Assembly: GCA_021777565.1 (NCBI GenBank)
Contig: JAJYDJ010000001.1
Location: forward strand, 248,856 to 312,855
Length of the DNA stretch: 64,000 nt
Origin: a bacterium
GTDB taxonomy: Bacteria > Patescibacteriota > Microgenomatia > Levybacterales > UBA12049
Direction: 5' to 3'
In this document: positions 8,729 to 51,518 of the stretch, piece after piece
Numbering within the stretch: the stretch's first letter is position 1
Layout of the letters: each line of letters begins with the position of its first letter
Program-made: the position numbers and the translations under genes
Notes under the pieces: model-generated
Seen by the model: only the letters and a program-made list of their open reading frames with translations
The model's database searches: none
Told to the model about the DNA's origin: nothing

Positions 8729-10036
8729 TTAGTGAGGAGTTTGTGGGACGTGTCTCTCAAGAACCCGCGCAATACGTGGTTGCGGTCTTCGAAGGACAAG
8801 ATTGGCGCCGGCATAGACGGCAGTCGTAGCCTGCTCCGCCCACACGCCGATGAGCGCATACAGTTGCCAGGTTGAAAGTGGTATCCCCAGAGAGCCGGCG
8901 AGCGTATCAATCAGTCCCAGCCCCATCGCGACTCCTGATCCGTAGAGTGCGCCATTGGCAATATGATTCTCTGCCTGGCCACCTGCGGCAAGAATCAGTG
9001 GATGTAAGAATCGGTTCAGTGCCGGAGAGTCCTGTGGAATGAGTTTGAACAGTTTACCAACAATACCGACCTGCTCACAGGCGTGCTGATATTCCTCTGG
9101 GCTTAGCATACGACCTTTGTGTGTGGTAAGCGCTTCATTTACCACATGCAAGGTGTTCATAAAGGCATGGGTCAAAAGTCCTGTTGCGGCAAACCCTAAA
9201 ATCCCGAAATTTGATGATAGGAAAATAGCTAATCCTACAACGGTGAGTGTCTCCCCCACTGGTGACTGAATAAAGTCAACGACCCGTTGTGGAATTGTCT
9301 TAACAAAGTCTCTTAAGCGCTCAACCATGGGAGTAGTTTTTTCAGATGTCTTGTGTTCATCTTCATGATGGTGATGCCCCTCATGGAGATGCTCATGCGT
9401 GTGCTCGTGCTCCTCGTGGTGAACATGTTCTTTTGCGAGAAAACGATGGGCAAATTTTTCTCTCATTTCATCAAAGAAACGATTAATTTTATGTGCATTA
9501 ACGGCCAGTACCTCAAAAAGCCCGTGTTGCGTTACCTGAATAATGACTTGTTGGGCCAGCTGTGGGATATCCTTGATCAGTGACAAAGCACCAGGAATAA
9601 GTGTACCGACAAACGTGAAAAATGCCGCGGTTTTGAGAATGCCTACCTCACGTGCATGAGAAGAGACGATACCAACAATAGCACCAACGACAGCAGGATT
9701 TTCACTGAGCATGAGATTGACCGCATCTACTGATTGCTCTGGCTGTGTGGCGATTTCTGGTGCTTGACCTTGAGCATCTACGGCCCTTCGCCTCACAAAG
9801 ACTTGGACATCCTCATGATGGTCATCTTCATCATGGTCATGATGTTCGTGGTGTTCATGCTCGTGGCTGTGCCCATGCGCATGACCGTGCGGATCGCCTA
9901 CTTCAACTCCCCTCACAACAAGATCAAGCTGAGGAAGATGCGTGTCCTCACTGAGTGAATCTGGCGCATGTCTTCTGGTAGCGTCTTCAAATGCACGAGT
10001 GACGTCTGGTGATAGGTGAAGTGTGATTTCGGTCAC
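8729..10036 (-). CDS. Histidine-rich polytopic membrane protein of unknown function (possibly a DUF389/TIGR00271-like hydrophobic-domain protein; family not verified).
   Basis: 435-aa ORF with two acidic His-rich tracts (HGHAHGHSHEHEHHEHHDHDEDDHHED and HVHHEEHEHTHEHLHEGHHHHEDEH) and at least four hydrophobic helices (AVVGAIVGIVS..., TLTVVGLAIFLSSNFGILGFAATGLL, GALYGSGVAMGLGLIDTLAGSLGI...). Confidence 0.5.
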   Translation of the reverse strand: MTEITLHLSPDVTRAFEDATRRHAPDSLSEDTHLPQLDLVVRGVEVGDPHGHAHGHSHEHEHHEHHDHDEDDHHEDVQVFVRRRAVDAQGQAPEIATQPEQSVDAVNLMLSENPAVVGAIVGIVSSHAREVGILKTAAFFTFVGTLIPGALSLIKDIPQLAQQVIIQVTQHGLFEVLAVNAHKINRFFDEMREKFAHRFLAKEHVHHEEHEHTHEHLHEGHHHHEDEHKTSEKTTPMVERLRDFVKTIPQRVVDFIQSPVGETLTVVGLAIFLSSNFGILGFAATGLLTHAFMNTLHVVNEALTTHKGRMLSPEEYQHACEQVGIVGKLFKLIPQDSPALNRFLHPLILAAGGQAENHIANGALYGSGVAMGLGLIDTLAGSLGIPLSTWQLYALIGVWAEQATTAVYAGANLVLRRPQPRIARVLERHVPQTPH

Positions 10037-16516: not shown

Positions 16517-17157
16517 GTAAGCAGTGTCTCCTCGAGAGCCATGCGAGCACTTACATTGGTCGAAGTAACTATCTCTTTCAATTTCAGGACTGCTATGAGT
16601 AATAAAGATTTCTCTTTCTCCCCTGCGACAAGATCACGGTGTAATACTTGTTCTGCTTTTTTAAGAAATACGAGAAATTCTTCTTTCTCTTTGGTGAGTT
16701 GTTGTGCGCTGTATAACTTTTCTCCAATTGTCCCCGACTGCCACGTTGTAAGCGTTCTCTGTATGGTTTCTACATCCTCGTCACTGATTGTAGGTGGCAC
16801 CTCAGTACGTTTAATAATCTGACATCGAGATGCTACTGTTGGCAACAGTGCACCAAGTGACGTGGTAAGAAGAAAAAAATACACATGCTCTGGCGGCTCT
16901 TCAAGAAGTTTTAAGAGTGCATTTTGTGCTGGTATGGTAAGTGTTTGCGCCTGTGGGATGATGATTGCTTTGTGTTGCCCTTGGAGTGGAGCAAGCTGCG
17001 TGTCAAGTTGGAGCTGTTTTACTTCTGCGATGCCACTAATATCGGCAAGTTGAACATCTGCTGGGTGTAAGTGCAGTGTTTGGATATATTCTTGTACCTG
17101 TGCGAGGTTATTCTCTGCATCTTGTGAGACAAAAAGAGTCGTAGTCATTGATTGCAT
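16504..17157 (-). CDS. holB: DNA polymerase III delta-prime subunit, short form lacking the N-terminal P-loop region
   Basis: NALLKLLEEPPEHVYFFLLT and SRCQ motifs of clamp-loader delta'. Only 217 aa. 13-nt convergent overlap with murF. Confidence 0.7.
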   Translation of the reverse strand: MQSMTTTLFVSQDAENNLAQVQEYIQTLHLHPADVQLADISGIAEVKQLQLDTQLAPLQGQHKAIIIPQAQTLTIPAQNALLKLLEEPPEHVYFFLLTTSLGALLPTVASRCQIIKRTEVPPTISDEDVETIQRTLTTWQSGTIGEKLYSAQQLTKEKEEFLVFLKKAEQVLHRDLVAGEKEKSLLLIAVLKLKEIVTSTNVSARMALEETLLTHFD

Positions 17158-17187
17158 TATAGTGCAAAGTTGACTACCATAATAGTA

Positions 17188-18903
17188 ATGCCCACTGATA
17201 CAAATCCTGCTCGCACTGTTTTTGATGTGTTGGTTGCTGATGGCGTGATTAGTAAAGATCAGGCCGATCAGCTTCGTGTCAAAGCGGCTACTGACAATAT
17301 CCCGCTTGATAAACTTTTAGAAACTTCTACCGTTGTTAATCCTGAACAATTGGCACAGGCGCGTGCCAAAATGCTGGGCATCCCTTACGTGCCTCTTGCA
17401 TCTACGGCATTTTCTCCTGAAGCACTAAATTTTCTCCCTCAGCCAGTGGTTGAGAGATTTCAGCTGATCCCGTTTGCTTATGATGACAGCGAGAAATCAC
17501 TTTCTATCGCGATGGCCCATCCTGAAAATGTTGAAGCACTGCAATTTGTGCAACAGAAGACAGGATTACACATCAAAACATTCGCAGCATCAGCTCAGGA
17601 AGTTGCCAGGGCTATTGCAACCCAATATCGTCAGGAATTGGTTGGAGAAGTTGGAAAAGCTATTAAAGAAACTGAAGAGCTCAAGCCAGTCAAGACTATT
17701 GATAGTGCAAAAATTGGTGAAATTATTAAAGAAGCACCAATTGCAAAAATTGTCTCCACGATTCTGGAATACGCCGTCATGAATCGCGCATCAGATATTC
17801 ACATGGAACCGCTAGATGATCGAGTGCGTGTCCGTTATCGTATTGATGGTATTCTCTATGATCGTTTGACACTTCCAAAATCTGTGCAAGAAGCAGTTGT
17901 CTCTCGTATTAAAATTCTGGCTGAAATGAAAATCGATGAACATCGTACGCCACAGGATGGTCGTTTTAACTATAAATACGCAGATAAGGAAGTAGATCTT
18001 CGTGTGTCCGTGCTGCCAACCGTCCATGGAGAGAAGATCGTTATGCGTTTACTTCGTAAATCTGGTGGGATTCCAACACTTCCAGAATTAGGGCTTGCCG
18101 GTATCGCATTGAAAAATCTAGAGACCGCAATGCTGAGACCTCATGGTATCATCATCGTCTGCGGACCTACTGGAAGTGGTAAAACAACGACTCTGTACTC
18201 TGTCCTATCCAAGCTCAATACACCAAATGTCAACATCATGTCTCTTGAAGATCCAGTCGAATACGAAATTGCCGGCGTCAATCAGGTGCAGATCAATCCA
18301 GGCGTTGGGCTTACCTTTGCCTCGGGGCTTAGAGCTTTCTTACGTCAGGATCCAAATGTTATTCTGGTCGGAGAAATTCGTGATAATGAAACAACAGATT
18401 TGGCTATTCAGGCCGCTCTGACGGGTCATTTGGTGTTCTCAACCTTGCATACCAGCTCAGCTGCAGGCGCCCTCCCTCGTCTTCTGGATTTGGGTGCTGA
18501 AGGATTTTTGCTTGCCTCGACTATGAATGCGTTGGTTGGACAACGTATTGTCCGTAAAATTTGCACTCACTGTAAAGTTGCCTACACTCCTGCGCAAGAA
18601 GTAGTAACTGAAATTCAGCAAGTATTGGGGAAGCTCTTTCCAGCACAAGGAGCAGTTCAGTTATATAAAGGACAAGGCTGCAGCGAATGTGGAGACTCAG
18701 GATACGTTGGTCGTATTGGTATCTTTGAAGTACTCCCAGTAACCGACAGGATTAGTAAGCTTATGCTTGCCCACCCTGAGGCCTCGGCACTGGAAGAAGA
18801 AGCGATCAAAGAAGGAATGATTACGATGCGCCAGGATGGCTACATGAAGGTATTACAAGGAATTACAACGATTGAAGAAGTGTTACGTGTGGCGCAAGAA
18901 TAA
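17188..18903 (+). CDS. pilB: Type IV pilus assembly ATPase PilB (GspE family)
   Basis: T2SSE N-terminal domains, Walker A GPTGSGKTTT, Asp/His boxes, and tetracysteine motif CTHCKVAY...CSECGDSGYVGR. Start probably MPTDTNP (17188); the ORF-track start at 17152 would overlap holB. Confidence 0.9.
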   Translation: MPTDTNPARTVFDVLVADGVISKDQADQLRVKAATDNIPLDKLLETSTVVNPEQLAQARAKMLGIPYVPLASTAFSPEALNFLPQPVVERFQLIPFAYDDSEKSLSIAMAHPENVEALQFVQQKTGLHIKTFAASAQEVARAIATQYRQELVGEVGKAIKETEELKPVKTIDSAKIGEIIKEAPIAKIVSTILEYAVMNRASDIHMEPLDDRVRVRYRIDGILYDRLTLPKSVQEAVVSRIKILAEMKIDEHRTPQDGRFNYKYADKEVDLRVSVLPTVHGEKIVMRLLRKSGGIPTLPELGLAGIALKNLETAMLRPHGIIIVCGPTGSGKTTTLYSVLSKLNTPNVNIMSLEDPVEYEIAGVNQVQINPGVGLTFASGLRAFLRQDPNVILVGEIRDNETTDLAIQAALTGHLVFSTLHTSSAAGALPRLLDLGAEGFLLASTMNALVGQRIVRKICTHCKVAYTPAQEVVTEIQQVLGKLFPAQGAVQLYKGQGCSECGDSGYVGRIGIFEVLPVTDRISKLMLAHPEASALEEEAIKEGMITMRQDGYMKVLQGITTIEEVLRVAQE

Positions 18904-18906
18904 TAT

Positions 18907-19974
18907 ATGGCGATTCAAGATTTATTGGAAGTAACCGTGCAGAATAGAGCCTCAGATTTACATCTGATGGCTAATACCACGCCGTACCTTCGTATTGATG
19001 GAGCTCTCGTCCCACTTCAGAGTGTTGGTGCGCTCACGCCAGCGATGGTTGAAGAGATGCTTTTTACTATCATGCTCCCCGAGCAGAAAACACTCCTTTT
19101 GGCAAACAAAGAGCTTGATTTTTCAGTCCCTTATGTGAGTAAAGATGGAACACAACGAGGACGGTTTCGTGTCAATGCGTATTATCAAAAGGCTACGATC
19201 GCAGTGGCATTCAGATACCTTACAGAAGCTATTGCCGGTATTGATGATTTGCATCTCCCAAAGATTTGTCACTCATTTACTGGATTAAAGCAAGGACTGG
19301 TTTTGGTAACTGGTCCAACTGGTCAAGGGAAATCTACTACGCTCGCTGCCATGACTCAAGAAATCAATTTGACTCGACCTGCACATATTATCACTATTGA
19401 AGACCCAATTGAGTATGTTTATCCACAAGGGAAAAGTATTATTTCTCAACGTGAAATGAAGATTGATACTCACTCTTGGAGCATGGCTCTTCGTAGCGCT
19501 CTGCGTGAAGATCCTGATGTAGTACTTATTGGAGAAATGCGTGATAGTGATACGATGGCTGCAGCAATGACGATTGCAGAGACTGGACACTTGGTTTTCT
19601 CAACACTGCATACCAACTCTGCTTCCCAGAGTATTGATCGTATTATCGACTCATTCCCAGAGCATCAGCAAATGCAGATTAGGACACAGTTATCTTTTAT
19701 TTTGAAAGGCATTATTTCACAAAGACTTCTTCCCCAAATTGGTGGTGGCAGAATCCCTGCCGTTGAAATATTAATTGGCAATCAAGCAGTCGCAAGTAAT
19801 ATTCGTGAGGGGAAGACTCATTTGATTGACTCTATTGTCCAAACATCTTCAGATCAAGGGATGGTTCCACTTGAAGCATCCTTGGCACAATTGGTGATGG
19901 CGGGGACGGTCACGCTGGAGACTGCAAAAGGGTATGCGCTCCATGTTGACGAATTCCTCAGACTAATTTCCTAA
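18907..19974 (+). CDS. pilT: Type IV pilus retraction ATPase PilT
   Basis: 355 aa, Walker A GLVLVTGPTGQGKSTT, PilT-type C-terminus, no N-terminal GspE domains. Confidence 0.85.
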   Translation: MAIQDLLEVTVQNRASDLHLMANTTPYLRIDGALVPLQSVGALTPAMVEEMLFTIMLPEQKTLLLANKELDFSVPYVSKDGTQRGRFRVNAYYQKATIAVAFRYLTEAIAGIDDLHLPKICHSFTGLKQGLVLVTGPTGQGKSTTLAAMTQEINLTRPAHIITIEDPIEYVYPQGKSIISQREMKIDTHSWSMALRSALREDPDVVLIGEMRDSDTMAAAMTIAETGHLVFSTLHTNSASQSIDRIIDSFPEHQQMQIRTQLSFILKGIISQRLLPQIGGGRIPAVEILIGNQAVASNIREGKTHLIDSIVQTSSDQGMVPLEASLAQLVMAGTVTLETAKGYALHVDEFLRLIS

Positions 19975-19975
19975 T

Positions 19976-21181
19976 ATGAAATTTATTTATAAAGCAGCTT
20001 CACTAGATGGAAAGCTTATTGAAGGAGAGATGGATGCTCGTGACAAAGACGAAGCAGCATTTTTCCTCAAAAACAAGAACTACATTCCAGTCATATTGAA
20101 AGAAAAATCAGATAAAATCTTTTCCCTGTCTTCTTTTATGAAAAAGAGACAGTCGACAAATGACTTGGTCCTTTTTACCAGACAGCTTTCTTCTATGTTG
20201 ACTGCGGGACTAACTCTTATGCAGTCTCTCACTATTTTACAGGAGCAACTTGAGGATAATTCACTATCCCCGATTGTGAATTACTTGATTACGCAGGTCA
20301 GTGAGGGAAAAAGTCTAGCTGAAGCTATGGCTCATTATCCAAAACTATTCTCCCCTGTCTATCTCTCCTTGATCCGTGCTGGAGAGACTTCAGGCTTTTT
20401 AGACAAAATTCTTGATCGTCTGGCAAATAACCTGGAAAAGAGTCAAAAGCTGCGTAGTACTATCTCCTCGGCACTTCTCTACCCTATTATTATCGTTATC
20501 TTAATGGTTGTGGTCATGGGACTTATGATGGTGTTTGTTATTCCTCAGCTTACTTCGCTGTATGCCAATTTAGGTATTGACCTGCCACTCCCAACGAGAA
20601 TTGTCGTTGGCGTCTCTAATTTCACCATCAACTTCTGGCCTTTGGTGATTGGTGTGGTTGTTCTTATCATATTTGGGTATAACCGCTGGATGAAAACAGA
20701 GACAGGCAGACTGATTCGTGATCAGGTAGTTATTAAAATCCCAGTATTTGGTCGACTTGTCGTGCTTTCTTTATTGACAGAGTTTGTCAGAACCCTGGGG
20801 CTTCTGATTGGTGCAGGTACACTGGTAGTAGAATCTCTCCAAGAAGGTGCTGATGTCGCGGGGAATCTGGTATATAAAAATGCAATTTTGGATATTGCGG
20901 ACAGAGTAGAAAAAGGTATTGGTATTGGCGATGCGATGAGTACCTATCCAATTTTTCCTCCTATTATGGTGCAAATGGTGCGTATTGGTGAACAGACAGG
21001 AAAACTTGATGAATCACTCTTGAAAGTCTCAGAATATTTCGAACGTGAAGTTGAGACAGGGGTTAAGGGACTAACGACGGCAATAGAACCATTTATTATG
21101 ATTATTTTGGGTATTGGTGTAGCGTTTCTTATTATTTCTGTTATTACGCCAATTTACAGCCTGACGTCAAGTATCCAATAG
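19976..21181 (+). CDS. pilC: Type IV pilus platform protein PilC (GspF family)
   Basis: Two GspF repeats, three TM helices, 401 aa, immediately after pilT. Confidence 0.85.
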   Translation: MKFIYKAASLDGKLIEGEMDARDKDEAAFFLKNKNYIPVILKEKSDKIFSLSSFMKKRQSTNDLVLFTRQLSSMLTAGLTLMQSLTILQEQLEDNSLSPIVNYLITQVSEGKSLAEAMAHYPKLFSPVYLSLIRAGETSGFLDKILDRLANNLEKSQKLRSTISSALLYPIIIVILMVVVMGLMMVFVIPQLTSLYANLGIDLPLPTRIVVGVSNFTINFWPLVIGVVVLIIFGYNRWMKTETGRLIRDQVVIKIPVFGRLVVLSLLTEFVRTLGLLIGAGTLVVESLQEGADVAGNLVYKNAILDIADRVEKGIGIGDAMSTYPIFPPIMVQMVRIGEQTGKLDESLLKVSEYFEREVETGVKGLTTAIEPFIMIILGIGVAFLIISVITPIYSLTSSIQ

Positions 21182-21230
21182 AGTTCCCTCTTGACAGCAG
21201 GAAAATGAATGTGTTTGACTAGATATAGGT

Positions 21231-21812
21231 ATGAAAACAAACGTAAAGCGATTCCTGCAAAGTAAAGCTAAAAAAGGCTTTACCCTTATTGAACTTTTGG
21301 TCGTTATTGGCATTCTTGGTATTCTGGCTTCTGCATTGGTTGCGACCATCGATCCTTTCGAACAGCTTAAGAAAGCAAATGATGCGAACGTGAAGAACAT
21401 TTTGGTTGAGTTTAACAACGCAACTATTCGTTACTATGCGACACACAATGCGTACCCATGGGATTCTGCAGCAAATGGCGGCGGTGGATGTAATACAAAT
21501 ACTGCGCCATCTGAGATGCAACTGTCTGGAACTGCGGGGACAAGTTGTGTGACTGCCTTGGTGGGAGATAATGAGCTAAAACAGTCATTCTCTGCTGCTA
21601 CTGGTGACCTTGCCAAGATTTATGTTACCTATGATTCAACCAACAATCTGGTCATTGGTTGTTTCCAACCTCAATCCAAATCTGGTCAGAATGACGCAAA
21701 CACAAAGTTTAATGGTGACGGTACTGCAGGGTCAGGCACGAAATCTTGTGCAACCGATTCTCTGGGTAATCCAGCGAACATGAACGGCGGCTGCTTCTGG
21801 TGCACACGCTAA
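21231..21812 (+). CDS. Major type IV prepilin (class III signal peptide with 16-aa leader)
   Basis: MKTNVKRFLQSKAKKG|FTLIELLVVIGILGILASALVA has Gly-1, Phe+1, Glu+5 and a hydrophobic alpha1-N. First and most upstream pilin after pilC. Paired Cys residues in the C-terminal half. Confidence 0.85.
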   Translation: MKTNVKRFLQSKAKKGFTLIELLVVIGILGILASALVATIDPFEQLKKANDANVKNILVEFNNATIRYYATHNAYPWDSAANGGGGCNTNTAPSEMQLSGTAGTSCVTALVGDNELKQSFSAATGDLAKIYVTYDSTNNLVIGCFQPQSKSGQNDANTKFNGDGTAGSGTKSCATDSLGNPANMNGGCFWCTR

Positions 21813-22588
21813 TGCTGCAATCAGGAATTACTATACTTTCCTTTATTCTTGGGATATGTGTTGGCTCGTTTCTCCTCGTAGTTGTAACACGACTTGCAGA
21901 GAATAAATCTTTTCTTTCAGGTAGATCAGCGTGCGATGCGTGTGGCCACACTCTTTCTCCATTTGATCTCGTTCCCCTCTTCTCCTACATCCTTCTCAAG
22001 GGCCATTGTCGCTATTGTCACTCAGTATTGTCCCCATTCTACTGGATAGTAGAACTTGTAACAGGCTTTATTTTTGCACTTACGAGCCTCAGTCTGATGC
22101 CACTTTTGCCATCAGTGCTCTTTTTCGAAATGTTGATTGGTATGTGGTTTGTCATCGGGGGTCTAGAAGTTATTTTTTTCTCCGATCTGTGGTATGGATA
22201 TATCCCCGATGGTGCAACAATCTTGATTGGGATTATTGGTATCTTACATGCCTGGCAATTTCATGCTCTTTTCTCGTCTCTTTTTGCCGGGATTGGGGCA
22301 GGTCTCTTCTTCTTACTTCTGCTAGTTGGCACCAAAGGACGAGGTATGGGGTGGGGAGATGTAAAATATGTTGTCGCAATGGGATTTCTTTTAGGTATTG
22401 GGTCAACTTTGGTTGGTCTGTATATTGCCTTTATCACAGGAGCACTCGTCGCTCTTGCGCTGGTGATTTTTCATAAAATGAAGCTTCGGGGTAGCACTAT
22501 TCCATTTGGGCCATTTTTGGTATTTGGTACGCTTGCAGCACTTACCTATGGTGAGGTACTCTGGAAGTGGTATCTACATTTTATATGA
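21800..22588 (+). CDS. pilD: Prepilin peptidase (A24 family) PilD
   Basis: N-terminal zinc-binding CDACGH...CRYCH tetracysteine, polytopic membrane topology, and catalytic Asp regions. Overlaps the pilin stop and the next start (ATGA). Confidence 0.85.
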   Translation: MHTLMLQSGITILSFILGICVGSFLLVVVTRLAENKSFLSGRSACDACGHTLSPFDLVPLFSYILLKGHCRYCHSVLSPFYWIVELVTGFIFALTSLSLMPLLPSVLFFEMLIGMWFVIGGLEVIFFSDLWYGYIPDGATILIGIIGILHAWQFHALFSSLFAGIGAGLFFLLLLVGTKGRGMGWGDVKYVVAMGFLLGIGSTLVGLYIAFITGALVALALVIFHKMKLRGSTIPFGPFLVFGTLAALTYGEVLWKWYLHFI

Positions 22589-23088
22589 ATCGTGGATTTA
22601 CACTCATAGAAATGGTTGTCACCATTGGAATTTTGGCTGCTTTGACGGCCGTGTTGATGGTCACACTTGATCCTCTCGGTCAACTCAATAAAGCTCAGAA
22701 TTCCAATCGTGAACAAGGGCTGACGGCAGTAAAAGCTGCCCTTGAAGAGTATATAAGTGATCAGAAATGCTACCCGGTTTCCCTTACCTTTGGTAGTAAT
22801 TTGACCGTCAGTGGGAAGACCTACATTTCCCTCCCTCAAGATCCTAATTGTCATAAAGGAGGTTGGTGTTATATTTATGAAACAGATGGGTCTACGTGTC
22901 CACAATGGTATGTTATTTATTATTCCTTGCAGCAGACTAATACAAATCTCACCCAGCAGTGCCCGCTTGCTACTCAGCAGAATTGTCTTCCTCCAAATAT
23001 GCTCTCAACGAAGTACAACTCATGCTTCACCTCAGAAGACTATAATTGCTCGTATATTAGCCAGCATGATATAACTCCCCTTCAGTAA
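22585..23088 (+). CDS. Prepilin-like protein (minor pilin/pseudopilin), paralog of 23127..23915
   Basis: MNRG|FTLIEMVVTIGILAALTAV class III signal. Globular part KCYPVSLTFG...QDPNCHKGGWCYIYETDGSTCPQW is alignable to the next gene. Confidence 0.8.
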   Translation: MNRGFTLIEMVVTIGILAALTAVLMVTLDPLGQLNKAQNSNREQGLTAVKAALEEYISDQKCYPVSLTFGSNLTVSGKTYISLPQDPNCHKGGWCYIYETDGSTCPQWYVIYYSLQQTNTNLTQQCPLATQQNCLPPNMLSTKYNSCFTSEDYNCSYISQHDITPLQ

Positions 23089-23126
23089 AGCATTTACGTT
23101 TTCCAAAGAAATGGGTATGCTAATAA

Positions 23127-23915
23127 GTGATGAGACTGTATCAGCGTGGATTTACCCTCATAGAATTATTAGTAGTTATTGGTATTCTTGGTATTCTTCT
23201 TATTGGTCTTCTCATGGCATTTAATCCAATCGAACAACTCAACAAGGCACGAGATGGGAAAAGAGAGTCAGAATTTCAGACAATCAAAAGTGCGCTGGAT
23301 ACTTACTACAATGATCATGGCTGTTACCCTACTTCCGTGAACTTTGGATATCCATGGACGTCTGGAAGTACAACCTACCTCCGACTGGTTCCTCAAGACC
23401 CTTCGTGTGGAAGTGCCTCAGGACTTTGTTATGCGTATCAGACGGATGGATCTACCTGCCCACAGTGGAATGTCCTCTATGCCAAGTTGCAATCAAGTAC
23501 CGCTAAAGTTCATGCATGTGCTTTGGCTAGCTTGACCCAAGGAAATACCGCTATCCAGTGTCTCCCCTCAAACTACACGTCGCTGGGCTATAACTATTGT
23601 GCGTTCTCAGGAAATATTGATTGTAGTATCATCTCACAAGGGACTATCCAGCCATCAGGACAGGGTCAAGGGCAAATTATTATTACTCCTGGCCCATCAC
23701 CTACCCCAACTCCTCGTCCATCGCCAACTCCTGTGCCAACTGATACCTGCACGCCTCGACTGTACGGCTGTGCGCCAGCTATCGTAAATAATCAAAGTAT
23801 TACTATCTGTAAAGATATGGGTATTGATCCTCAGACAGGACAAGGCGCAGGATCTTTCTGTGGATACCCGGGATGCCAAGGGAATGCCTGTTGTAACTAT
23901 GCATGTACTCAATAA
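23127..23915 (+). CDS. Prepilin-like protein with Pro/Thr linker and Cys-rich C-terminal module (candidate tip adhesin)
   Basis: MMRLYQRG|FTLIELLVVIGILGIL class III signal. Pilin-like domain homologous to 22585..23088, then IITPGPSPTPTPRPSPTPVPT linker, then 8 Cys in about 55 aa (CTPRLYGC...CKDMG...FCGYPGCQGNACCNYAC). Confidence 0.8.
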   Translation: MMRLYQRGFTLIELLVVIGILGILLIGLLMAFNPIEQLNKARDGKRESEFQTIKSALDTYYNDHGCYPTSVNFGYPWTSGSTTYLRLVPQDPSCGSASGLCYAYQTDGSTCPQWNVLYAKLQSSTAKVHACALASLTQGNTAIQCLPSNYTSLGYNYCAFSGNIDCSIISQGTIQPSGQGQGQIIITPGPSPTPTPRPSPTPVPTDTCTPRLYGCAPAIVNNQSITICKDMGIDPQTGQGAGSFCGYPGCQGNACCNYACTQ

Positions 23916-24405
23916 ATTATCGCGTGGATTTACTCTGATTGAACTCATTGTTGTTATGGGTATTTTAGGGATACTTGCTACGGCAACAATAGCCGTGATG
24001 GATCCTCTCGGCCAAATTCATAAATCTGATGATGTGAAGCGAAAGTCTGATCTTGCGACCGTCCAGAAAGCCCTAGAACAGTATTATCAAGATTTTGGGA
24101 AATATCCGGCAGCGGCAAGTAATGAGATTGTAGATTTCAAAACGACACAACCTATGCCATGGGGAACTACATGGTCCCCTTACCTAGTCGTTTTGCCAAA
24201 GGATCCAACAAGTAATAGATCCTATGTCTATGTTGTGCGCTCAGATATGCAAGGATACTGGCTGTATGCCAGTCTTGAGAGAACAAGTGACCCGCAGTTG
24301 TGTAATAGTGGCAATCCATGTGCCAGTGCTGTGACCAATAATGTTTCGAATGCCTGTGGCACCGCGTGTAACTATGTTGTAAGTAGTCCAAATGTTGTAA
24401 AGTAG
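23899..24405 (+). CDS. Prepilin-like protein (minor pilin)
   Basis: MHVLNKLSRG|FTLIELIVVMGILGILATATIAV class III signal. 17-nt overlap with the preceding stop; the ORF-track start at 23824 lies inside the previous gene. Confidence 0.75.
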   Translation: MHVLNKLSRGFTLIELIVVMGILGILATATIAVMDPLGQIHKSDDVKRKSDLATVQKALEQYYQDFGKYPAAASNEIVDFKTTQPMPWGTTWSPYLVVLPKDPTSNRSYVYVVRSDMQGYWLYASLERTSDPQLCNSGNPCASAVTNNVSNACGTACNYVVSSPNVVK

Positions 24406-24409
24406 AAGT

Positions 24410-24898
24410 ATGAGAGTGAATAAAGGATTTACACTGGTAGAATTATTAGTCGTTATTGCGATTATTGGTGTGTTATCAACGCTGGTGATGGCTAACTTTA
24501 TTGGTATTAGACAACGTGCCCGTGATGCACAACGAAAAGCTGATCTTCGCCAAATTCAGTCAGCGCTTGAAATTTATCGAGCAGACATTGGCTCATACAA
24601 AACAACAGCTGTTGGGACATACTATCTGAATACTTCTGTCTGCCCAGGAAGTTCTAGTTTTGTTTCTGGTAATAATACGTATATGCAAAGTGTCCCTTGT
24701 GATCCTAGTGGATCCGGAGTCTATAATGGAGGGAATTACTACTATTACAGTAACAATGGCACCACGTATACCCTTGCTGCCTGCATAGAAAACACTGGGG
24801 ACTCTGACTCTCATGTCTCTCAAACTGCTCCAAATCCTGCGCCACCTAGCAATAGTACCTGTAGTAGTGGGTACTATTACATCCTACAAAATCCATAA
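24410..24898 (+). CDS. Prepilin-like protein (minor pilin)
   Basis: MRVNKG|FTLVELLVVIAIIGVLSTLVMA class III signal. Confidence 0.8.
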   Translation: MRVNKGFTLVELLVVIAIIGVLSTLVMANFIGIRQRARDAQRKADLRQIQSALEIYRADIGSYKTTAVGTYYLNTSVCPGSSSFVSGNNTYMQSVPCDPSGSGVYNGGNYYYYSNNGTTYTLAACIENTGDSDSHVSQTAPNPAPPSNSTCSSGYYYILQNP

Positions 24899-25443
24899 TG
24901 AACATGTTTAAATATCGTGGTTTTACTTTGGTCGAACTGGTCGTCGTACTTGCTATTTTAAGTCTCCTCTCTGCGGCAAGTATTGCGGCATTTGTGTCGT
25001 ACAATCGTGCACAAGGTGTATCAGTTGGTGGACAGGAAGTGCGTACAATACTCTATACTGCCAGGTCCTATGCACTCGCTCAGGCAAATACCCCTCAGGA
25101 ATGTTACAGTGGGCAGTGTCAGTGTCCATCTGGGCAGACATTTGTCGGATATCGTGTTGTTTTCTGCTGCGCTTCAGGAGGTGGACAAAATTGTCCTAAC
25201 ACCTGCATCGTAAATGATAGTGCTGAACATTATGAATTAAATTTGCTTTGTAGTAGTAGCTCGTTTACTGTCGAAACAGATCACTTCCCGACAGGAGTCA
25301 GCGTCTCCAATGCCAGCACGTCTCGGTCCTTCTCGTTTGAAGCAGTTACGGGTGCTGTTACTGGTGCCGGGATGTTGCGTATTGGGAATGCGTTCAGTCA
25401 AACAAATGATATTACAGTATCAGCATTGGGGGTTATACAATGA
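24898..25443 (+). CDS. Prepilin-like protein (minor pilin, GspH/FimT-like size)
   Basis: MNMFKYRG|FTLVELVVVLAILSLLSAASIAAF class III signal. ATGA overlap with the upstream gene. Confidence 0.8.
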   Translation: MNMFKYRGFTLVELVVVLAILSLLSAASIAAFVSYNRAQGVSVGGQEVRTILYTARSYALAQANTPQECYSGQCQCPSGQTFVGYRVVFCCASGGGQNCPNTCIVNDSAEHYELNLLCSSSSFTVETDHFPTGVSVSNASTSRSFSFEAVTGAVTGAGMLRIGNAFSQTNDITVSALGVIQ

Positions 25444-25958
25444 ACATAAAACAAAAGGGTCAAACACTTATTGAAATTCTCGTTGCGCTTTCTATTGCTG
25501 CGGTTTTAGTCTCTGCAACATCGGTTGCCGTACTCAGTGCACTTTCTAATGCAGAATTTGCTAAGCAACAGAGCCTCGCTTCTCAATATGCGGATCAAGG
25601 TATCGAAATCATACGTTCCATGCGTAATAACGATTATAGTAACTTTCAGCAACTCTCAGGGACATACTGTATGGCATCGTCCTGCAACAGTCTGGTAAAT
25701 ACGTCTTCAAATGCCTGTGGTATCTCAACCGACCCTACGGGGGTAATCTCATGTGGTCAGAATGTATCAACATTTGTAAGAACAGTGAATGTCTCACCAA
25801 CAAATGCTGGAGCGACTGATTGTAATACGGCTGGATATAAAGTGTCGGTAAATGTCGCGTGGGCCGATGCTAAGTGCACAGATTCTACCAAACCATTTTG
25901 TCATATCTTGACAATCAGTACGTGTTTATCTAATTATCAAATTGAACCAACACCATGA
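25440..25958 (+). CDS. Prepilin-like protein with Gln at +1 (PilV-like minor pilin)
   Basis: MNIKQKG|QTLIEILVALSIAAVLVSATSVAVL. Glu+5 is retained while Phe+1 is replaced by Gln. Confidence 0.7.
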   Translation: MNIKQKGQTLIEILVALSIAAVLVSATSVAVLSALSNAEFAKQQSLASQYADQGIEIIRSMRNNDYSNFQQLSGTYCMASSCNSLVNTSSNACGISTDPTGVISCGQNVSTFVRTVNVSPTNAGATDCNTAGYKVSVNVAWADAKCTDSTKPFCHILTISTCLSNYQIEPTP

Positions 25959-26497
25959 AAAAATATAGATCACAAAAAGGGTTTACTCTCATAGAGTTAT
26001 TAGCTGCACTGTTAGTGTTGGTAGTCGTTGGATCAATCATTGCCCAAATTCTGGTGACCGCATTTCGAACATCCAAAAAAAGTGATTCTATAGCACTCAT
26101 TAAACAGAGTGGTAATTTTGCTCTGACGGAAATGGCAAAAACTATTCGTAATGCCAGAGAGCTTATGACTCCCTATCCTTGTGGGACGCCAAGTAGTCCG
26201 ACGACCTCAAATTCTCTCCAAATTATATCTCCAGATGGGAGGCAAATTACGCTCTCCTGTGATTTGACAAATAACCTATTGGCATCAGATTCTGTCTCGT
26301 TGATCGATAACCAGACCCTCCAACTCTCTGCTCCTTGTAACTTTGTTTGTAGTCAGGTCAGTAGTACTGATCTTCCCTTGATTACGATCTCCTTTGGATT
26401 GCAACAGAAAGTTACGAGTAGCTTTGTTGAAAATGTTGCTGCACCCTCCCCGATTCTTTTTACGACCTCAGTTACCTTAAGGAACCTGACACGCTGA
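25955..26497 (+). CDS. Prepilin-like protein (PilW/PilE-like minor pilin)
   Basis: MKKYRSQKG|FTLIELLAALLVLVVVGSIIAQIL class III signal. Confidence 0.8.
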   Translation: MKKYRSQKGFTLIELLAALLVLVVVGSIIAQILVTAFRTSKKSDSIALIKQSGNFALTEMAKTIRNARELMTPYPCGTPSSPTTSNSLQIISPDGRQITLSCDLTNNLLASDSVSLIDNQTLQLSAPCNFVCSQVSSTDLPLITISFGLQQKVTSSFVENVAAPSPILFTTSVTLRNLTR

Positions 26498-26538
26498 GTT
26501 CATTGACAGTCATAAGGCATGCTTGATAGGCTAAAGGT

Positions 26539-27348
26539 ATGGATAGATATTCTCAACGTGGCCAAACGCTCCTGGTCATTGTTTTGGTGATGGTCGTTGC
26601 ATTGACGGTCAGTCTTTCCATTGCTGCTCGTATGGTGACTACTCTTCGTGTTTCTTCAGAAGAAGCCAATTCTGAGAAGGCATTTCAGGCAGCTGAGTCA
26701 GGAGTAGATTACGTTCTCAAGTCAGGACAACAAATTACAACAGCCCAGGATCTTGGTAATCATGCCGTCATTGCTTCAGCTACGTATTCTGATCTTCGCA
26801 ACATCTCGCAATACATTATTCGAAACGGTGTGATTGTCGCGCAAGATGATGGTATCGATGTCTGGCTCTCAGACTATTCACCACAGAAATCACTTATTTA
26901 TAACAATCCCTGGAGCGGAGGGCTAACGGTTTATTGGAGTCTTCCCTCAGATAATTGTGGTGCGACTCCCCCACAGGCGGCAGCCCTTTCATTGATCTTG
27001 ATTTCAGGTTCAAAAACTGCTCCAACTATTCATAGATATGCAGTCGATCCATGTTCTCGATTGAATGGATTTAGTCCAGCTGGGGCCGGTACAACGATTG
27101 GTACGGTCGTATTTAAAAACTCATATCATATTGGTGGGATCACCAATGGGTTGTTACTTCGTATCATTCCTCTTTATTCAGGGACTATTCTTGGTATCAA
27201 GCTAGATGCAGGGTCCGCTAACTTTCCATCACAAGGGAAAATCATTACTTCCAGAGGAAGTTCTGGCACCACTACACGACAAATAAGCTATTTCCAAGGC
27301 TATGACAGTGTACCATCTGAATTTTTCTATTCGCTTTTTTCACAATAA
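26539..27348 (+). CDS. PilX-like minor pilin (Gln at +1)
   Basis: MDRYSQRG|QTLLVIVLVMVVALTVSLSIAA followed by an AFQAAESG motif reminiscent of the PilX N-terminal domain. 269 aa, the largest in the set. Confidence 0.7.
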   Translation: MDRYSQRGQTLLVIVLVMVVALTVSLSIAARMVTTLRVSSEEANSEKAFQAAESGVDYVLKSGQQITTAQDLGNHAVIASATYSDLRNISQYIIRNGVIVAQDDGIDVWLSDYSPQKSLIYNNPWSGGLTVYWSLPSDNCGATPPQAAALSLILISGSKTAPTIHRYAVDPCSRLNGFSPAGAGTTIGTVVFKNSYHIGGITNGLLLRIIPLYSGTILGIKLDAGSANFPSQGKIITSRGSSGTTTRQISYFQGYDSVPSEFFYSLFSQ

Positions 27349-28376
27349 TGGCATTAAATACTTTTGGACTAGATTTAGGATCAAAACACGTACGAGCTGT
27401 ATGGCTTGATAGTACGGGTGAGCATGCGTTTAGCCTAAGCTCTGCCTTCTCTGCTCCCATGCCTGAGAAAGGATTACAATCAGAGTCTCCTCTTGATCAA
27501 CAACAAGTAGCACAGGTCATCGGACAGGTTGTGAGTGAGGCACACATTACCGTAAAAAGTGTAAACATTGCACTGCCTGAAAACCAAGTATATACCCGTG
27601 TTGTAGAAACACCAGTCCTTTCAGATAAAGAGCTCACTTCAGCAATTTACTGGATTGCAGAGCAGCAAATTCCAATTCCTCTTAAGAGTGTAACATTGGA
27701 TTATCGTATCTTACACAAACCTACCCCTGAGGAAAAATCAACTACCATGCAGGTTCTTCTCGTTGGTGCGCCAACGGCCCTTCTTGATAGATATGAACAT
27801 GTCCTTTCACTGATTGGCCTTTCTATCGCCAGTGTGGAGACAGATACACTCGCTGCTCTTCGTGTCTTGACCAAACCTGACAAAATTGGCCGTATGGTTT
27901 TAAACGTCGGACTTGCGAGTAGCACACTGTCTCTGGCCGTTGGGAATGACCTCCGGGTTGTCTACTCAATTCCAACAGGCACAATGGCATTGACCCGCGC
28001 GATCTCAACCAATCTCAATATGTCGCTTACTCAGGCAGAAGCATATAAAAATACGTATGGAGTTACCCCGGGACATGGAAATTCTTTGGAAGTTGCGGTC
28101 GAACCTATTTTAAATGTTATGGTGAGCGAAGTGAAAAAAGCTATCTCCTTTTTTAGAGAGAAGCTCCCCGATGCGACACTATCTGAAATGTTATTGATTG
28201 GAGATGACGCCCAGGTCCCAGGGCTTGCTCAATATTTTCAGGCACGTACAGGGCTTACAACTCATGGAGCTGATCCATGGGGTATGCTGGGAATAAAAAA
28301 CCTCCCCAAAGAGCTGGTAGATGAAGGCCCTGCATATGCCGTAGCACTGGGCCTTGCTATGCGAACATATGAGTAA
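27348..28376 (+). CDS. pilM: Type IV pilus assembly protein PilM (actin-like ATPase fold)
   Basis: MALNTFGLDLGSKHVRAVWLD N-terminus, 342 aa, immediately upstream of pilN/pilO. Confidence 0.8.
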   Translation: MALNTFGLDLGSKHVRAVWLDSTGEHAFSLSSAFSAPMPEKGLQSESPLDQQQVAQVIGQVVSEAHITVKSVNIALPENQVYTRVVETPVLSDKELTSAIYWIAEQQIPIPLKSVTLDYRILHKPTPEEKSTTMQVLLVGAPTALLDRYEHVLSLIGLSIASVETDTLAALRVLTKPDKIGRMVLNVGLASSTLSLAVGNDLRVVYSIPTGTMALTRAISTNLNMSLTQAEAYKNTYGVTPGHGNSLEVAVEPILNVMVSEVKKAISFFREKLPDATLSEMLLIGDDAQVPGLAQYFQARTGLTTHGADPWGMLGIKNLPKELVDEGPAYAVALGLAMRTYE

Positions 28377-28908
28377 AACTGATGTAAATTTGATGGTCCA
28401 AAGAAGGAAGCAAGGTGAAACGAGTGAGAGACTACGTATCTTAAGTATTCGACTCGCCTATATCTTTGTAGCGCTTACGATAGTAATTTCAGTGGTATTT
28501 TTTATATTGTCACGCGATAGTACTGCCGCGACGCTTCAAGCACAACAAAATCAAACAGAGACGGCAATCATGCTCCTGAAAGATAAAGCGAGTAGTATTT
28601 TTCTTTTGAAAAAAAGAATTGCATTGGCCAGCTCGATCTTGAAATCTCGCAAGAATTATGATGTACTCCTCTCCTCTACGCTTTCTGGACTCGGGGCTGA
28701 TACCAGAGTGGATACATACTCAATTACGTCAAAAACAATTTCAGTTACCGCATCATCAAGTAATTTATCATCCCTTAATTCATGGCTTGATACACTGAAG
28801 ACACAGACAAATCCCAAAGGACTTTTCTCAAAATTAAGTATTGATAACTTTATTCTCGATACAAAATCTGGGCTCTATAGCTTGAGTATCACCGTAACCT
28901 TTTTATGA
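28369..28908 (+). CDS. pilN: Type IV pilus assembly protein PilN (bitopic)
   Basis: Short cytoplasmic N-terminus, single TM (YIFVALTIVISVVFFIL), then coiled-coil/periplasmic region. Start at 28369 assumed; ORF-track start is 28354. Confidence 0.7.
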   Translation: MSKTDVNLMVQRRKQGETSERLRILSIRLAYIFVALTIVISVVFFILSRDSTAATLQAQQNQTETAIMLLKDKASSIFLLKKRIALASSILKSRKNYDVLLSSTLSGLGADTRVDTYSITSKTISVTASSSNLSSLNSWLDTLKTQTNPKGLFSKLSIDNFILDTKSGLYSLSITVTFL

Positions 28909-29561
28909 TGCCTAACCAAACAACACTAAGAATTTTATTGTATAAATATCGGGATTTTCTGTTCCCGGTAGGAACTATTGTGGTGTGTTTACTCATCATG
29001 GTAGTTATCCTCATCCCAGAAGGAGTAAATATTGTGAATCAGGAGAATAATGTGCAAGTACTGCGAAATGATATTGCCTCTTTACAGACAAATCTTTCTG
29101 TCATTGAAAAATATGATACGTCTCAACTGCACCTTAATACGAGTCGTGTTAATCGTGCCGTACCAACCTCTAAGGATTTTGGTGTTGTCATCGATACGCT
29201 TCAGCGAGCTGCCAATGCATCAAATGTGGCCTTGAGTGACTACACATTTCAGGTGGGAGATTTGGCCGATACGAGGCCACAAGTAAAATCATCAACCAAT
29301 GCGAGCACATTTTTGGTCTCAGTGGTTCTGTTGGGTGATGCCAAATCTGTTGCGGCATTTTTACGTTCAGTCGAACATCAACTCCCTCTCGCTGATGTGA
29401 GTGACGTGAAAGGGACGATACAAAGTGCTGGTGTGACACTTTTGTTTTATTACCAACCTCAGACGAGTGTGACGGTACAGGCAACGGATAACTTCACCTC
29501 CCTCACTCCATCGGAACAGTCAACATTAAGTACTCTTGCCACCTACGACACGATAAAGTAG
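28905..29561 (+). CDS. pilO: Type IV pilus assembly protein PilO (bitopic)
   Basis: Single TM (VGTIVVCLLIMVVILI), coiled-coil, then C-terminal globular domain. Last gene of the pil run. Confidence 0.7.
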   Translation: MMPNQTTLRILLYKYRDFLFPVGTIVVCLLIMVVILIPEGVNIVNQENNVQVLRNDIASLQTNLSVIEKYDTSQLHLNTSRVNRAVPTSKDFGVVIDTLQRAANASNVALSDYTFQVGDLADTRPQVKSSTNASTFLVSVVLLGDAKSVAAFLRSVEHQLPLADVSDVKGTIQSAGVTLLFYYQPQTSVTVQATDNFTSLTPSEQSTLSTLATYDTIK

Positions 29562-50747: not shown

Positions 50748-51518
50748 TCAACCTGATTTGGCAGCATTGGTCTCGGAATTCACAATATCACTTCTCTGTT
50801 TGGGCTTAAATCTTCCCATCATGCCGCCTGATTTGGCCTTCTGACTTTGTGGCTGGCCAAACTGCCCCTGCATGTTTCTCTTGCCTTGTACGGCTCTCTG
50901 CCACGTGCCTGACTCACTACTGCGCTGCTGTACATCCCTGGCAAGGGATAACAAGTTACTCAGGACACTGGAAGTTGCCTTATCAGGGGTCATCCCTGGG
51001 CCTGTTGCTTGGATAAGCTCTCTTTGCAGCGAGGCATCTTTGGTTGTCGCCGCAATACGCTGAATTTCCCCAAGAATTTCCTGGCTACTTCGCTGCATTT
51101 TTTGTCTCTCTTCACCTTCAGCCTTTTTACTTGCGTTGATAAGATCTCTTGCATAATTTGGTGTCTCGATCCCCGCTTCGATATGCACTGGCTTCTTCTC
51201 TGGAACTACTCCTTTGAGTTCACCTGGATTTTTATTGAGAGAGGCCAGATCGATTGCGGTACCAGGCTGCATCTCACCTTTTTTGCCAAGCATGGGCGAT
51301 AGGTCGATGCCCGTGATATTTTCAACGGCCTGTCCAAAGCCTGTTTTGGCATGTTCTTGGACTGTTTTTCCCACACTTTTGGGCATTTCTTTCAGGATCT
51401 CAAATCCATCAGTAGTTGGACGAGGCGGTGTAGGCGTCTTTTTGGGCGGTTGGAAAGGATTTGGGCTTTTTTGCAAGACCCCGAAGGTTTGTGCGGGTTT
51501 ACCCCATGAATCGGCCAT
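50748..51518 (-). CDS. Hypothetical low-complexity protein (Pro-rich N-terminus, Gln/Lys-rich C-terminus; probably disordered)
   Basis: 256-aa ORF on the same strand as tig. PNPFQPPKKTPTPPRPT. No domain recognised. Confidence 0.4.
   Translation of the reverse strand: MADSWGKPAQTFGVLQKSPNPFQPPKKTPTPPRPTTDGFEILKEMPKSVGKTVQEHAKTGFGQAVENITGIDLSPMLGKKGEMQPGTAIDLASLNKNPGELKGVVPEKKPVHIEAGIETPNYARDLINASKKAEGEERQKMQRSSQEILGEIQRIAATTKDASLQRELIQATGPGMTPDKATSSVLSNLLSLARDVQQRSSESGTWQRAVQGKRNMQGQFGQPQSQKAKSGGMMGRFKPKQRSDIVNSETNAAKSG

What the first reader, a model, noticed from the sequence alone, without database searches (positions are those of the whole stretch)
17152..29561. Secretin-less 13-gene type IV pilus locus with retraction ATPase and nine prepilins
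The locus contains pilB, pilT, pilC, a major prepilin with an unusually long (16-aa, IVb-like) leader, pilD, eight further prepilin-like genes (two with Gln instead of Phe at +1; one PilX-like), and pilM/N/O. All are co-directional with tiny or overlapping junctions. There is no PilQ secretin or PilP, which fits a monoderm envelope. PilT implies a retractile pilus. Nine pilins is large for such a compact genome and points to a functionally important appendage (natural competence/DNA scavenging, twitching, or host-cell attachment). This matches what is known for CPR/Saccharibacteria-type T4P, but the combination of a IVb-like leader with a IVa-like PilT/PilMNO machinery is worth noting.
Basis: partly seen in the sequence, partly recalled or inferred. 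Interest (0 to 1): 0.55.

Follow-up and report, generated by a model that had tools for sequence, protein, structure and literature searches.

The report
Secretin-less retractile type IV pilus operon
This is a complete, single-membrane-style type IV pilus gene cluster (16 genes, including a retraction motor and nine pilins) in a tiny-genome Patescibacteria/CPR bacterium; it is real and well formed, but it is the kind of pilus locus already described for this group.

Summary
The locus is real, but it has 16 co-directional genes, not 13: pilB, pilT, pilC, pilA, pilD, eight more prepilins, pilM, pilN and pilO. The largest gap between genes is 49 nt. PilT passes the NCBIfam PilT/PilU cutoff and carries an AIRNLIRE-type motif. 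PilM passes its cutoff. PilN and PilO needed remote-homology tests, which supported both. All nine prepilin motifs in the 64 kb window lie inside the locus. About 84 kb of annotated sequence contains no secretin, ComEC, ComEA or DprA domain; the rest of the 953 kb contig could not be checked.

The organism is related to Levybacteria (Microgenomates), not Saccharibacteria. The locus and both housekeeping flanks are syntenic in three relatives, which have 7–8 pilins.

The 16-aa leader is not unusual. Across 120 orthologues the median leader is 16 aa, all with Phe+1 and Glu+5. Long leaders with clustered genes, PilMNO and PilT are the published signature of single-membrane type IVa pili.

Verdict: a new member of a known kind. 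It matches CPR-wide descriptions and TM7x "T4P locus one". Its function (twitching, host attachment, possibly DNA uptake) is inferred, not shown. Interest is low to moderate.

The parts
17188..18903 (+). pilB, extension ATPase (571 aa from the ATG; the longest ORF starts at TTG 17152)
   Evidence: Pfam T2SSE at E=3e-125 plus MshEN. NCBIfam GspE 560 bits and PilB 546 bits, both below their equivalog cutoffs. Walker A GPTGSGKTT and tetracysteine CTHC...CSEC. 64-69% identical to syntenic orthologues.
18907..19974 (+). pilT, retraction ATPase (355 aa)
   Evidence: TIGR01420 PilT/PilU family, 415.5 bits against a 319.1 cutoff, aligned over model positions 2-339 of 343. AIRNLIRE-type motif AVASNIRE, Walker A, no CxxC.
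19976..21181 (+). pilC, platform protein (401 aa)
   Evidence: Pfam T2SSF, two stretches, E=2e-58. Full-length alignment to the GspF and PilC NCBIfam models, below cutoffs.
21231..21812 (+). pilA, presumed major prepilin (193 aa; 16-aa leader, 177-aa mature protein, 6 Cys)
21812..22588 (+). pilD, prepilin peptidase / N-methyltransferase (258 aa)
   Evidence: Pfam A24_N_bact at E=4e-27 plus Peptidase_A24 at E=1e-10. CDAC...CRYC and GWGDVK motifs.
22585..23088 (+). pln2, prepilin (MNRG|FTLIEM; 8 Cys), paralogue of pln3
   Evidence: N_methyl 26.6 bits. 47.5% identical to the pln3 head domain. Weak GspG N-terminal hit.
23130..23915 (+). pln3, modular prepilin (261 aa; 16 Cys): a pln2-like head, a Pro/Thr-rich linker, then a small Cys-rich C-terminal module
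   Evidence: N_methyl 34.9 bits. The linker and Cys-rich module are conserved in the L032 orthologue.
23884..24405 (+). pln4, GspG-like prepilin (...LNKLSRG|FTLIEL; start at ATG 23884 or 23899)
   Evidence: N_methyl 34 bits and T2SSG 29.8 bits. NCBIfam GspG 60.9 bits over model positions 1-114 of 134, below cutoff. 48-49% identical 1:1 orthologues.
24410..24898 (+). pln5, GspG-like prepilin (MRVNKG|FTLVEL)
   Evidence: N_methyl 34.6 bits and T2SSG 26.6 bits. NCBIfam GspG 66 bits, below cutoff. 46-55% identical orthologues.
24898..25443 (+). pln6, minor prepilin in the FimU/GspH position (MNMFKYRG|FTLVEL)
   Evidence: N_methyl 34.4 bits. Weak hits to the PpdA, PpdD and GspH models. Collinear orthologues. 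The class assignment is inferred from gene order.
25440..25958 (+). pln7, PilV/GspI-like minor prepilin with Gln at +1 (MNIKQKG|QTLIEI)
   Evidence: N_methyl 30 bits. Best NCBIfam hit is PilV TIGR02523 at E=7e-8 over model positions 1-138 of 139 (33 bits, below the 52.2 cutoff), followed by GspI. Gln+1 is conserved in the L031 and L032 orthologues.
25955..26497 (+). pln8, minor prepilin in the PilW/GspJ position (MKKYRSQKG|FTLIEL)
   Evidence: N_methyl 30 bits. Only N-terminal hits. Collinear orthologues, with Tyr+1 in relatives. The class is inferred from gene order.
26539..27348 (+). pln9X, PilX/GspK-position minor prepilin (269 aa; MDRYSQRG|QTLLV, no Glu+5)
   Evidence: Pfam PilX_N 30 bits against a 25.5 cutoff. 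Gln+1 and absence of Glu+5 are conserved in the L031 and L032 orthologues. No PDB sequence hit.
27348..28376 (+). pilM, actin-like assembly protein (342 aa)
   Evidence: Pfam PilM_2 at E=1e-39. TIGR01175, 188.2 bits against a 133 cutoff.
28369..28908 (+). pilN (179 aa from the ATG; N-terminal MSKTDVNLMV, then a TM helix)
   Evidence: No direct Pfam hit. An exhaustive HMMER search finds 471 representatives of about 178 aa. The family consensus starts MxxxINLL. The family profile's top PDB hit is Myxococcus PilN 3jc8 at E=1.6e-3. 47 of 150 members match Pfam PilN.
28905..29561 (+). pilO (218 aa; TM helix, coiled coil, αββ-αββ domain)

Best explanation
A vertically inherited, single-operon, monoderm-style type IVa pilus machine in a Levybacteria-related Patescibacterium.

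Proposed mechanism, by homology to characterised type IVa systems:
1. PilD cleaves the nine prepilins after the conserved Gly and N-methylates residue +1.
2. The four collinear minor pilins pln6 to pln9X, the last lacking Glu5, prime assembly and end up at the tip.
3. The PilB hexamer drives PilC to polymerise PilA from the membrane.
4. PilM clamps the cytoplasmic INLL-type N-terminus of PilN. PilN and PilO pair through their coiled coils and ferredoxin-like domains to form the assembly subcomplex.
5. PilT replaces PilB to depolymerise and retract the filament.
6. No secretin or PilP is needed because there is no outer membrane.

The GspG-like pilins pln2 to pln5 are accessory or alternative subunits. 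They include the modular pln3 with its Cys-rich C-terminal module, which is a candidate adhesin.

Likely role: retraction-powered surface or host-cell attachment and twitching, as shown for the equivalent PilT-containing locus of Saccharibacteria. DNA uptake is a possible additional role.

Shown here: gene content, family membership and synteny. Inferred: subunit roles, retraction and biological function.
For: - All core components are identified: Pfam and NCBIfam; PilN; PilO.
- PilT is above its curated cutoff and carries the AIRNLIRE-type motif. PilB carries the tetracysteine motif.
- There are nine class III signal peptides, and they occur only in this locus.
- The operon is tight, with a maximum gap of 49 nt.
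- The locus and its housekeeping flanks (gyrA-ppa-gyrB...holB on one side, trmD-KH-rpsP-rnc-nusB-recG on the other) are conserved in three relatives, with 1:1 collinear orthologues for pln4 to pln9X.
- pln7 best matches PilV/GspI and pln9X carries PilX_N.
- Published criteria for monoderm type IVa pili are a IVa-like α1N, PilMNO and PilT, with long leaders and clustered genes being normal (PMC6916266).
- The same gene set in TM7x locus one builds the essential pilus linked to twitching (PMC11623550).
- A CPR-wide T4P without PilQ is documented (PMC6744442).
Against: - PilB and PilC score below the NCBIfam equivalog cutoffs and match GspE/GspF about as well as PilB/PilC.
- The PilO call rests on a low-confidence model (pLDDT 57) and sub-threshold HMM hits.
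- The classes of pln6 and pln8 are inferred from gene order only.
- Absence of a secretin was tested over only about 84 kb of a 953 kb contig.
- There are no expression, proteomic or imaging data, so PilA as the major pilin, retraction, and the biological role are all inference.
- The promoter and terminator scan was at chance level.
Confidence: 0.85

Rival explanations
1. The pilus is primarily a competence (DNA-uptake) pilus. Retraction by PilT reels bound DNA to a ComEC channel, feeding a nucleotide-auxotrophic cell.
For: CPR genomes are enriched in ComEC and DprA and are proposed to scavenge DNA through T4P (PMC6744442; PMC9894109). Saccharibacteria are naturally competent (PMC11623550). 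PilA has a very weak ComP_DUS hit at E=0.02.
Against: No ComEC, ComEA or DprA domain lies within about 84 kb of the locus. The machinery is the PilMNO+PilT type IVa kind, not ComG: ComGA scores 253 bits against a 300 cutoff. In TM7x all T4P-2 mutants kept wild-type competence, and locus one could not be tested because it is essential. The ComP_DUS hit is far below the family cutoff.
Confidence: 0.25
2. One machine builds two different filaments: a PilA filament, and a second fibre or pseudopilus made of the GspG-like pilins pln2 to pln5. This could serve protein secretion or a distinct adhesion role, a T2SS-like function without a secretin.
For: pln4 and pln5 align to most of the GspG model (60.9 and 66 bits; Pfam T2SSG above its cutoff). 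PilB and PilC match GspE and GspF as well as PilB and PilC. TM7x makes two distinct pili. The number of GspG-like pilins varies between relatives, from 2 to 4.
Against: There is only one PilB/PilC set in the window. No GspC, GspL or GspD is present. TM7x uses two separate machineries for its two pili. Accessory GspG-like minor pilins are common in ordinary type IVa systems (PMC11623550). GspG scores are below the equivalog cutoff.
Confidence: 0.1
3. The major pilin is a genuine type IVb-like pilin grafted onto type IVa machinery, a true hybrid system.
Confidence: 0.05

Closest known systems
Nanosynbacter lyticus TM7x 'T4P locus one' (T4P-1), Saccharibacteria (PMC11623550; also TM7i, PMC9894109)
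   Same: The same component set sits in one locus: PilB, PilT, PilC, PilD, PilM, PilN, PilO, a small major pilin, several minor pilins including a large PilX-type one, and no secretin. It is a CPR host with a reduced genome. Some minor pilins resemble T2SS pseudopilins.
   Different: The lineage differs (Levybacteria-related Microgenomates rather than Saccharibacteria). The window has nine pilins in the locus against five. Sequence orthology to the TM7x proteins was not tested here. No functional data exist for this organism.
Monoderm type IVa pili of Firmicutes (Streptococcus sanguinis, Clostridium spp.; Pelicic 2019, PMC6916266)
   Same: Genes are clustered, the major pilin has a long leader with a IVa-type α1N, PilMNO and PilT are present, and there is no PilQ or PilP.
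CPR-wide T4P system described by Méheust et al. 2019 (PMC6744442)
   Same: Pilin family, PilB, PilT, platform proteins and prepilin peptidase are all present, and PilQ is absent. The pilins are disulfide-rich, consistent with the CPR-enriched MdbA-like oxidoreductase.
   Different: That work is a protein-family census. This is one concrete, fully resolved 16-gene operon with synteny across relatives.
Diderm type IVa pilus machines (Pseudomonas aeruginosa, Myxococcus xanthus 3jc8)
   Same: PilB/T/C/D/M/N/O homologues are present. The minor-pilin order resembles fimU-pilV-pilW-pilX. PilN has the INLL-type N-terminus. PilO has the αββ-αββ fold.
   Different: There is no PilQ, PilP, TsaP or PilY1. 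All genes sit in one operon. The major pilin has a long leader.

Membership tests
Type IVa pilus (Tfpa; criteria of Pelicic 2019 and Denise 2019 as quoted in PMC6916266) | Pilins with a class III signal peptide and a IVa-like α1N (Gly-1, Phe+1, Glu+5, hydrophobic tract) | tested here: met
   Nine prepilins were found. Eight pass Pfam N_methyl. PilA α1N is FTLIELLVVIGILGILA. Two have Gln+1, and one of those lacks Glu+5, which fits a PilX/GspK-type subunit.
Type IVa pilus (Tfpa) | PilM, PilN and PilO assembly subcomplex (specific to Tfpa) | tested here: met
   [not shown]
Type IVa pilus (Tfpa) | PilT retraction ATPase | tested here: met
   TIGR01420, 415.5 bits against a 319.1 cutoff. AVASNIRE motif and no tetracysteine. 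Retraction itself cannot be tested here.
Type IVa pilus (Tfpa) | PilB extension ATPase, PilC platform and PilD prepilin peptidase | tested here: met
   Pfam T2SSE+MshEN, T2SSF x2, and A24_N_bact+Peptidase_A24. PilB and PilC are below the NCBIfam equivalog cutoffs and match GspE and GspF about equally.
Diderm type IVa pilus / TXSScan-style T4aP | PilQ secretin (and PilP) | tested here: not met
   No Secretin or PilP domain is found among the called genes of about 84 kb, that is the window plus about 10 kb on each side. The rest of the 953 kb contig cannot be tested with these tools. Absence is expected for the monoderm variant.
Type IVb pilus | Long leader together with a non-Phe +1 residue, a IVb pilin head, and IVb-specific machinery without PilMNO or PilT | tested here: not met
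   [not shown]
Com (ComG) competence pilus of monoderms | ComGA/ComGB/ComGC-GG set, with no PilT and no PilMNO | tested here: not met
   ComGA scores 253 bits against a 300 cutoff, and ComGB 143 against 240. Pilins give only N-terminal ComG hits. PilT and PilMNO are present.
Type II secretion system | GspD secretin, GspC/L/M, and GspG-K pseudopilins, with no PilT | tested here: not met
   No GspD, GspC or GspL is found. PilT is present. The GspE, GspF and GspG models are all matched below their equivalog cutoffs.
Patescibacterial T4P-1 (TM7x locus one type) | A single locus with PilB, PilT, PilC, PilD, PilM/N/O, a major pilin and minor pilins including a large PilX | tested here: met
   Gene content was compared with the description in PMC11623550. 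Direct sequence orthology and phylogeny with TM7x proteins were not tested.

The most novel reading that the evidence does not exclude
Probability: 0.1. Interest if true: 0.5.

Novelty: new member of a known kind. Interest (0 to 1): 0.25.

Why it matters
Type IV pili are the best-supported device for host attachment, motility and possibly DNA scavenging in CPR/Patescibacteria. Their genetics have only been dissected in Saccharibacteria. This locus gives a clean, fully resolved 16-gene reference operon for a Levybacteria-related Microgenomates lineage, with conserved synteny. It has a defined core: PilA, two GspG-like pilins, four collinear minor pilins and PilMNO. It also contains a candidate modular adhesin pilin. 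That makes it useful for comparative work, but it does not change current understanding.

Tried and rejected
- Word-indexed homologue searches for PilN and PilO returned only the proteins themselves plus one close PilO fragment. I replaced them with an exhaustive HMMER search for PilN and synteny-derived orthologues for PilO.
- The PilO orthologue profile against PDB sequences gave only spurious TM and coiled-coil hits to GPCR-BRIL fusions. I discarded it.
- Orthologue profiles of pln6 to pln9X against PDB sequences detected only the shared N-terminal helix or nothing. GspH/I/J/K class assignment from head domains therefore failed. Only pln7 (PilV/GspI) and pln9X (PilX_N) have family-level support.
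- Strain-variation analysis was not possible. L024, L026 and L027 are 100% identical to the window.
- The promoter and terminator scan was at chance level.
- The repeat search found only the conserved pilin N-terminal coding segment, with no silent cassettes or invertible elements.
The genome-contig scan with PilC found only one moderately close relative, L001 at 54% identity, and the window's own genome was not found.
- One exact look-up, for 4982-6082, was not on record.
Full report
**Observation.** Between 17152 and 29561 the + strand carries an uninterrupted run of ORFs. Independent gene calls on the source contig resolve these into 16 genes. The source is ENA ERZ27236897 k141_2336031, 953,194 bp; the same sequence appears in GCA_027424575.1 and in two other samples. 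Junctions run from a 32-nt overlap to a 49-nt gap, the largest being between pilC and pilA. Minus-strand ORFs inside the locus are short shadow ORFs.

**Component identification.**
- PilB has Pfam T2SSE (E=3e-125) plus MshEN. It also has the tetracysteine motif CTHC...CSEC typical of GspE/PilB extension ATPases. Gene callers and the L001 orthologue favour the ATG at 17188 (571 aa) over the TTG at 17152.
- PilT scores 415.5 bits on TIGR01420 (PilT/PilU family; cutoff 319.1) over the whole model. It carries AVASNIRE, an AIRNLIRE-type motif, and has no CxxC pairs.
- PilC has two T2SSF domains. PilD has A24_N_bact plus Peptidase_A24, with CxxC...CxxC and GWGDVK.
- PilM passes TIGR01175 at 188 bits against a 133 cutoff.
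- PilB and PilC fall below the NCBIfam equivalog cutoffs and match GspE and GspF about as well as PilB and PilC. This is expected for a deep lineage, but it means the type IVa assignment rests on PilT and PilMNO rather than on these two proteins.

**PilN and PilO.** Neither had a significant direct Pfam or NCBIfam hit. Word-indexed searches found only the proteins themselves plus one close PilO fragment.
- PilN: an exhaustive HMMER search found 471 representatives of uniform length, about 178 aa. Their consensus begins MxxxINLL, which is the PilM-binding motif of PilN. That role is established knowledge from the Thermus PilM–PilN work, recalled from memory. The window protein has the variant D-V-N-L-M. 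The family profile's best PDB hit is Myxococcus PilN (3jc8_Na, E=1.6e-3, aligned from residue 1). Individually, 47 of 150 members match Pfam PilN.
- I accept both assignments, PilO with moderate confidence.

**Pilins.** A six-frame motif scan finds exactly nine class III signal-peptide motifs in the 64 kb window, and all nine are in the locus. Eight pass Pfam N_methyl and the ninth passes PilX_N (30 bits against a 25.5 cutoff). Gln at +1 occurs in pln7 (25440) and pln9X (26539), and pln9X also has Val instead of Glu at +5. All nine have an even number of Cys: 6, 8, 16, 4, 4, 8, 8, 4 and 2. They fall into three groups.
- PilA is the only pilin with a clearly long leader. It is also the most conserved pilin across relatives, at 53-56% identity.
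- pln2 to pln5 are related to each other and GspG-like. pln3 is a pln2 paralogue (47.5% identity) extended by a Pro/Thr-rich linker and a small Cys-rich module. The L032 orthologue has the same extension.
- pln6 to pln9X are four mutually unrelated pilins with overlapping junctions. pln7 best matches PilV (TIGR02523, E=7e-8, full model length, below cutoff) and then GspI. pln9X has PilX_N and lacks Glu5. The order therefore mirrors fimU-pilV-pilW-pilX and gspH-I-J-K. The classes of pln6 and pln8 are inferred from gene order only, because profile searches of the head domains failed.

**Context and taxonomy.** Named PilA homologues come from "Patescibacteria group" and "Candidatus Levybacteria", which belong to the Microgenomates group. 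Three relatives' loci (L031, L032, L033) share the whole arrangement. It runs gyrA-ppa-gyrB...holB, then pilB-T-C, pilA, (pilD), 6-7 further pilins, pilM and two Pfam-negative genes of about 180 and 218-254 aa, then trmD-KH-rpsP-rnc-nusB-recG. Orthologues of pln4 to pln9X are 1:1 and collinear. The locus is therefore ancestral and vertically inherited in this lineage. The window's nine pilins compare with 7-8 in relatives, the extra coming from the pln2/pln3 duplication. That is unremarkable, since TM7x has 12 predicted pilins over four loci.

**Secretin and competence genes.** Precomputed Pfam annotation covers about 84 kb, that is the window plus about 10 kb on each side. It shows no Secretin, PilP, ComEC, ComEA or DprA domain and no second PilB/PilC set. 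The remaining roughly 870 kb of the contig could not be searched with the tools available.

**Comparison with the literature.** Méheust et al. 2019 described a T4P system enriched across CPR. It includes pilins, PilB, PilT, platform proteins and the prepilin peptidase, lacks PilQ, and comes with an MdbA-like oxidoreductase proposed to fold disulfide-bonded pilins (PMC6744442). TM7x "T4P locus one" encodes PilC1, PilB1, PilT, PilM1/N1/O1, PilD and five pilins. It is essential and is linked to twitching. All T4P-2 mutants kept wild-type competence (PMC11623550). TM7i work linked T4P to twitching and host association (PMC9894109). The window locus has the same architecture in a different CPR lineage.

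**Mechanism and function.** The mechanism in the best explanation is inferred from homology to characterised type IVa machines. Only gene content, family membership and synteny are shown here. Retraction-powered attachment and twitching is the most likely role because PilT is present and because of the Saccharibacteria precedent. DNA uptake remains possible but has no local support.

**Verdict.** This is a new member of a known kind, and interest is about 0.25.

Noticed in passing
L033:10552-12576; L001:8597-12904; window 54079-57214: Relatives carry glycosylation genes between pilA and pilD. L033 has a 674-aa TMEM260_N (O-mannosyltransferase-like) protein. L001 has three ORFs that look like glycosyl- or methyltransferases by eye (no family scan was run on them) plus a 605-aa multi-TM protein. 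The window has no such insert, but it has a PMT_2 + GT2 + methyltransferase cluster about 26 kb downstream. This suggests pilin O-glycosylation in this lineage.
   Followed up: partly
window 23130-23915 (C-terminal part, roughly 23650-23915); L032:11498-12256: pln3 is a modular pilin. It has a pln2-like head, then a Pro/Thr (or Gly)-rich linker, then a Cys-rich module of about 55 aa with 8 Cys and no Pfam match. The L032 orthologue has the same extension, but pln2 and L031 do not. It is a candidate adhesin or tip module.
   Followed up: partly
[not shown]
   Followed up: partly
window 21231-27348: All nine pilins have an even number of Cys (6, 8, 16, 4, 4, 8, 8, 4, 2). This implies extracytoplasmic disulfide formation. 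No thioredoxin, DsbA or MdbA-like gene was seen in the roughly 84 kb examined.
   Followed up: no
window 61342-63975 and beyond the window end (L029:15733-19227): A 1164-aa protein with collagen-type repeats (Pfam Collagen) runs off the window end. A response regulator and a CHASE/PAS histidine kinase lie beyond it. It may be a surface fibre or S-layer-like protein.
   Followed up: no
L001 (CAYZEE010000009.1): This MAG contig is labelled 'uncultured Gammaproteobacteria bacterium', yet it shares the Mur-ligase, holB, pilB-T-C, pilA arrangement of the window. Identities are PilB 66%, PilT 64% and PilC 54%. The taxonomic label is probably wrong.
   Followed up: partly
L031:5113-9238 and 11998-12354: In the Levybacteria-type relative L031, pilB-T-C are inverted relative to the pilin block. 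No pilD lies in the locus, and a 23S_rRNA_IVP-family gene is inserted among the pilins. The operon is rearrangeable while keeping its content.
   Followed up: no
window 8729-10036 (-), 40659-41957 (-), 50748-51518 (-): Several sizeable conserved ORFs (435, 432 and 256 aa) have no Pfam hit on record. They are typical CPR 'dark' proteins. The 435-aa gene sits between gyrA and the mur cluster.
   Followed up: no
L024, L026, L027 against the window: Contigs from three different ENA samples (ERZ27236897, ERZ27236866, ERZ27233572) are 100% identical to the window over 8-21 kb. The same strain was recovered repeatedly. The NCBI copy (L025) is not an exact substring of the window, so it differs by at least one base or extends past the compared stretch; it was not aligned.
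   Followed up: partly
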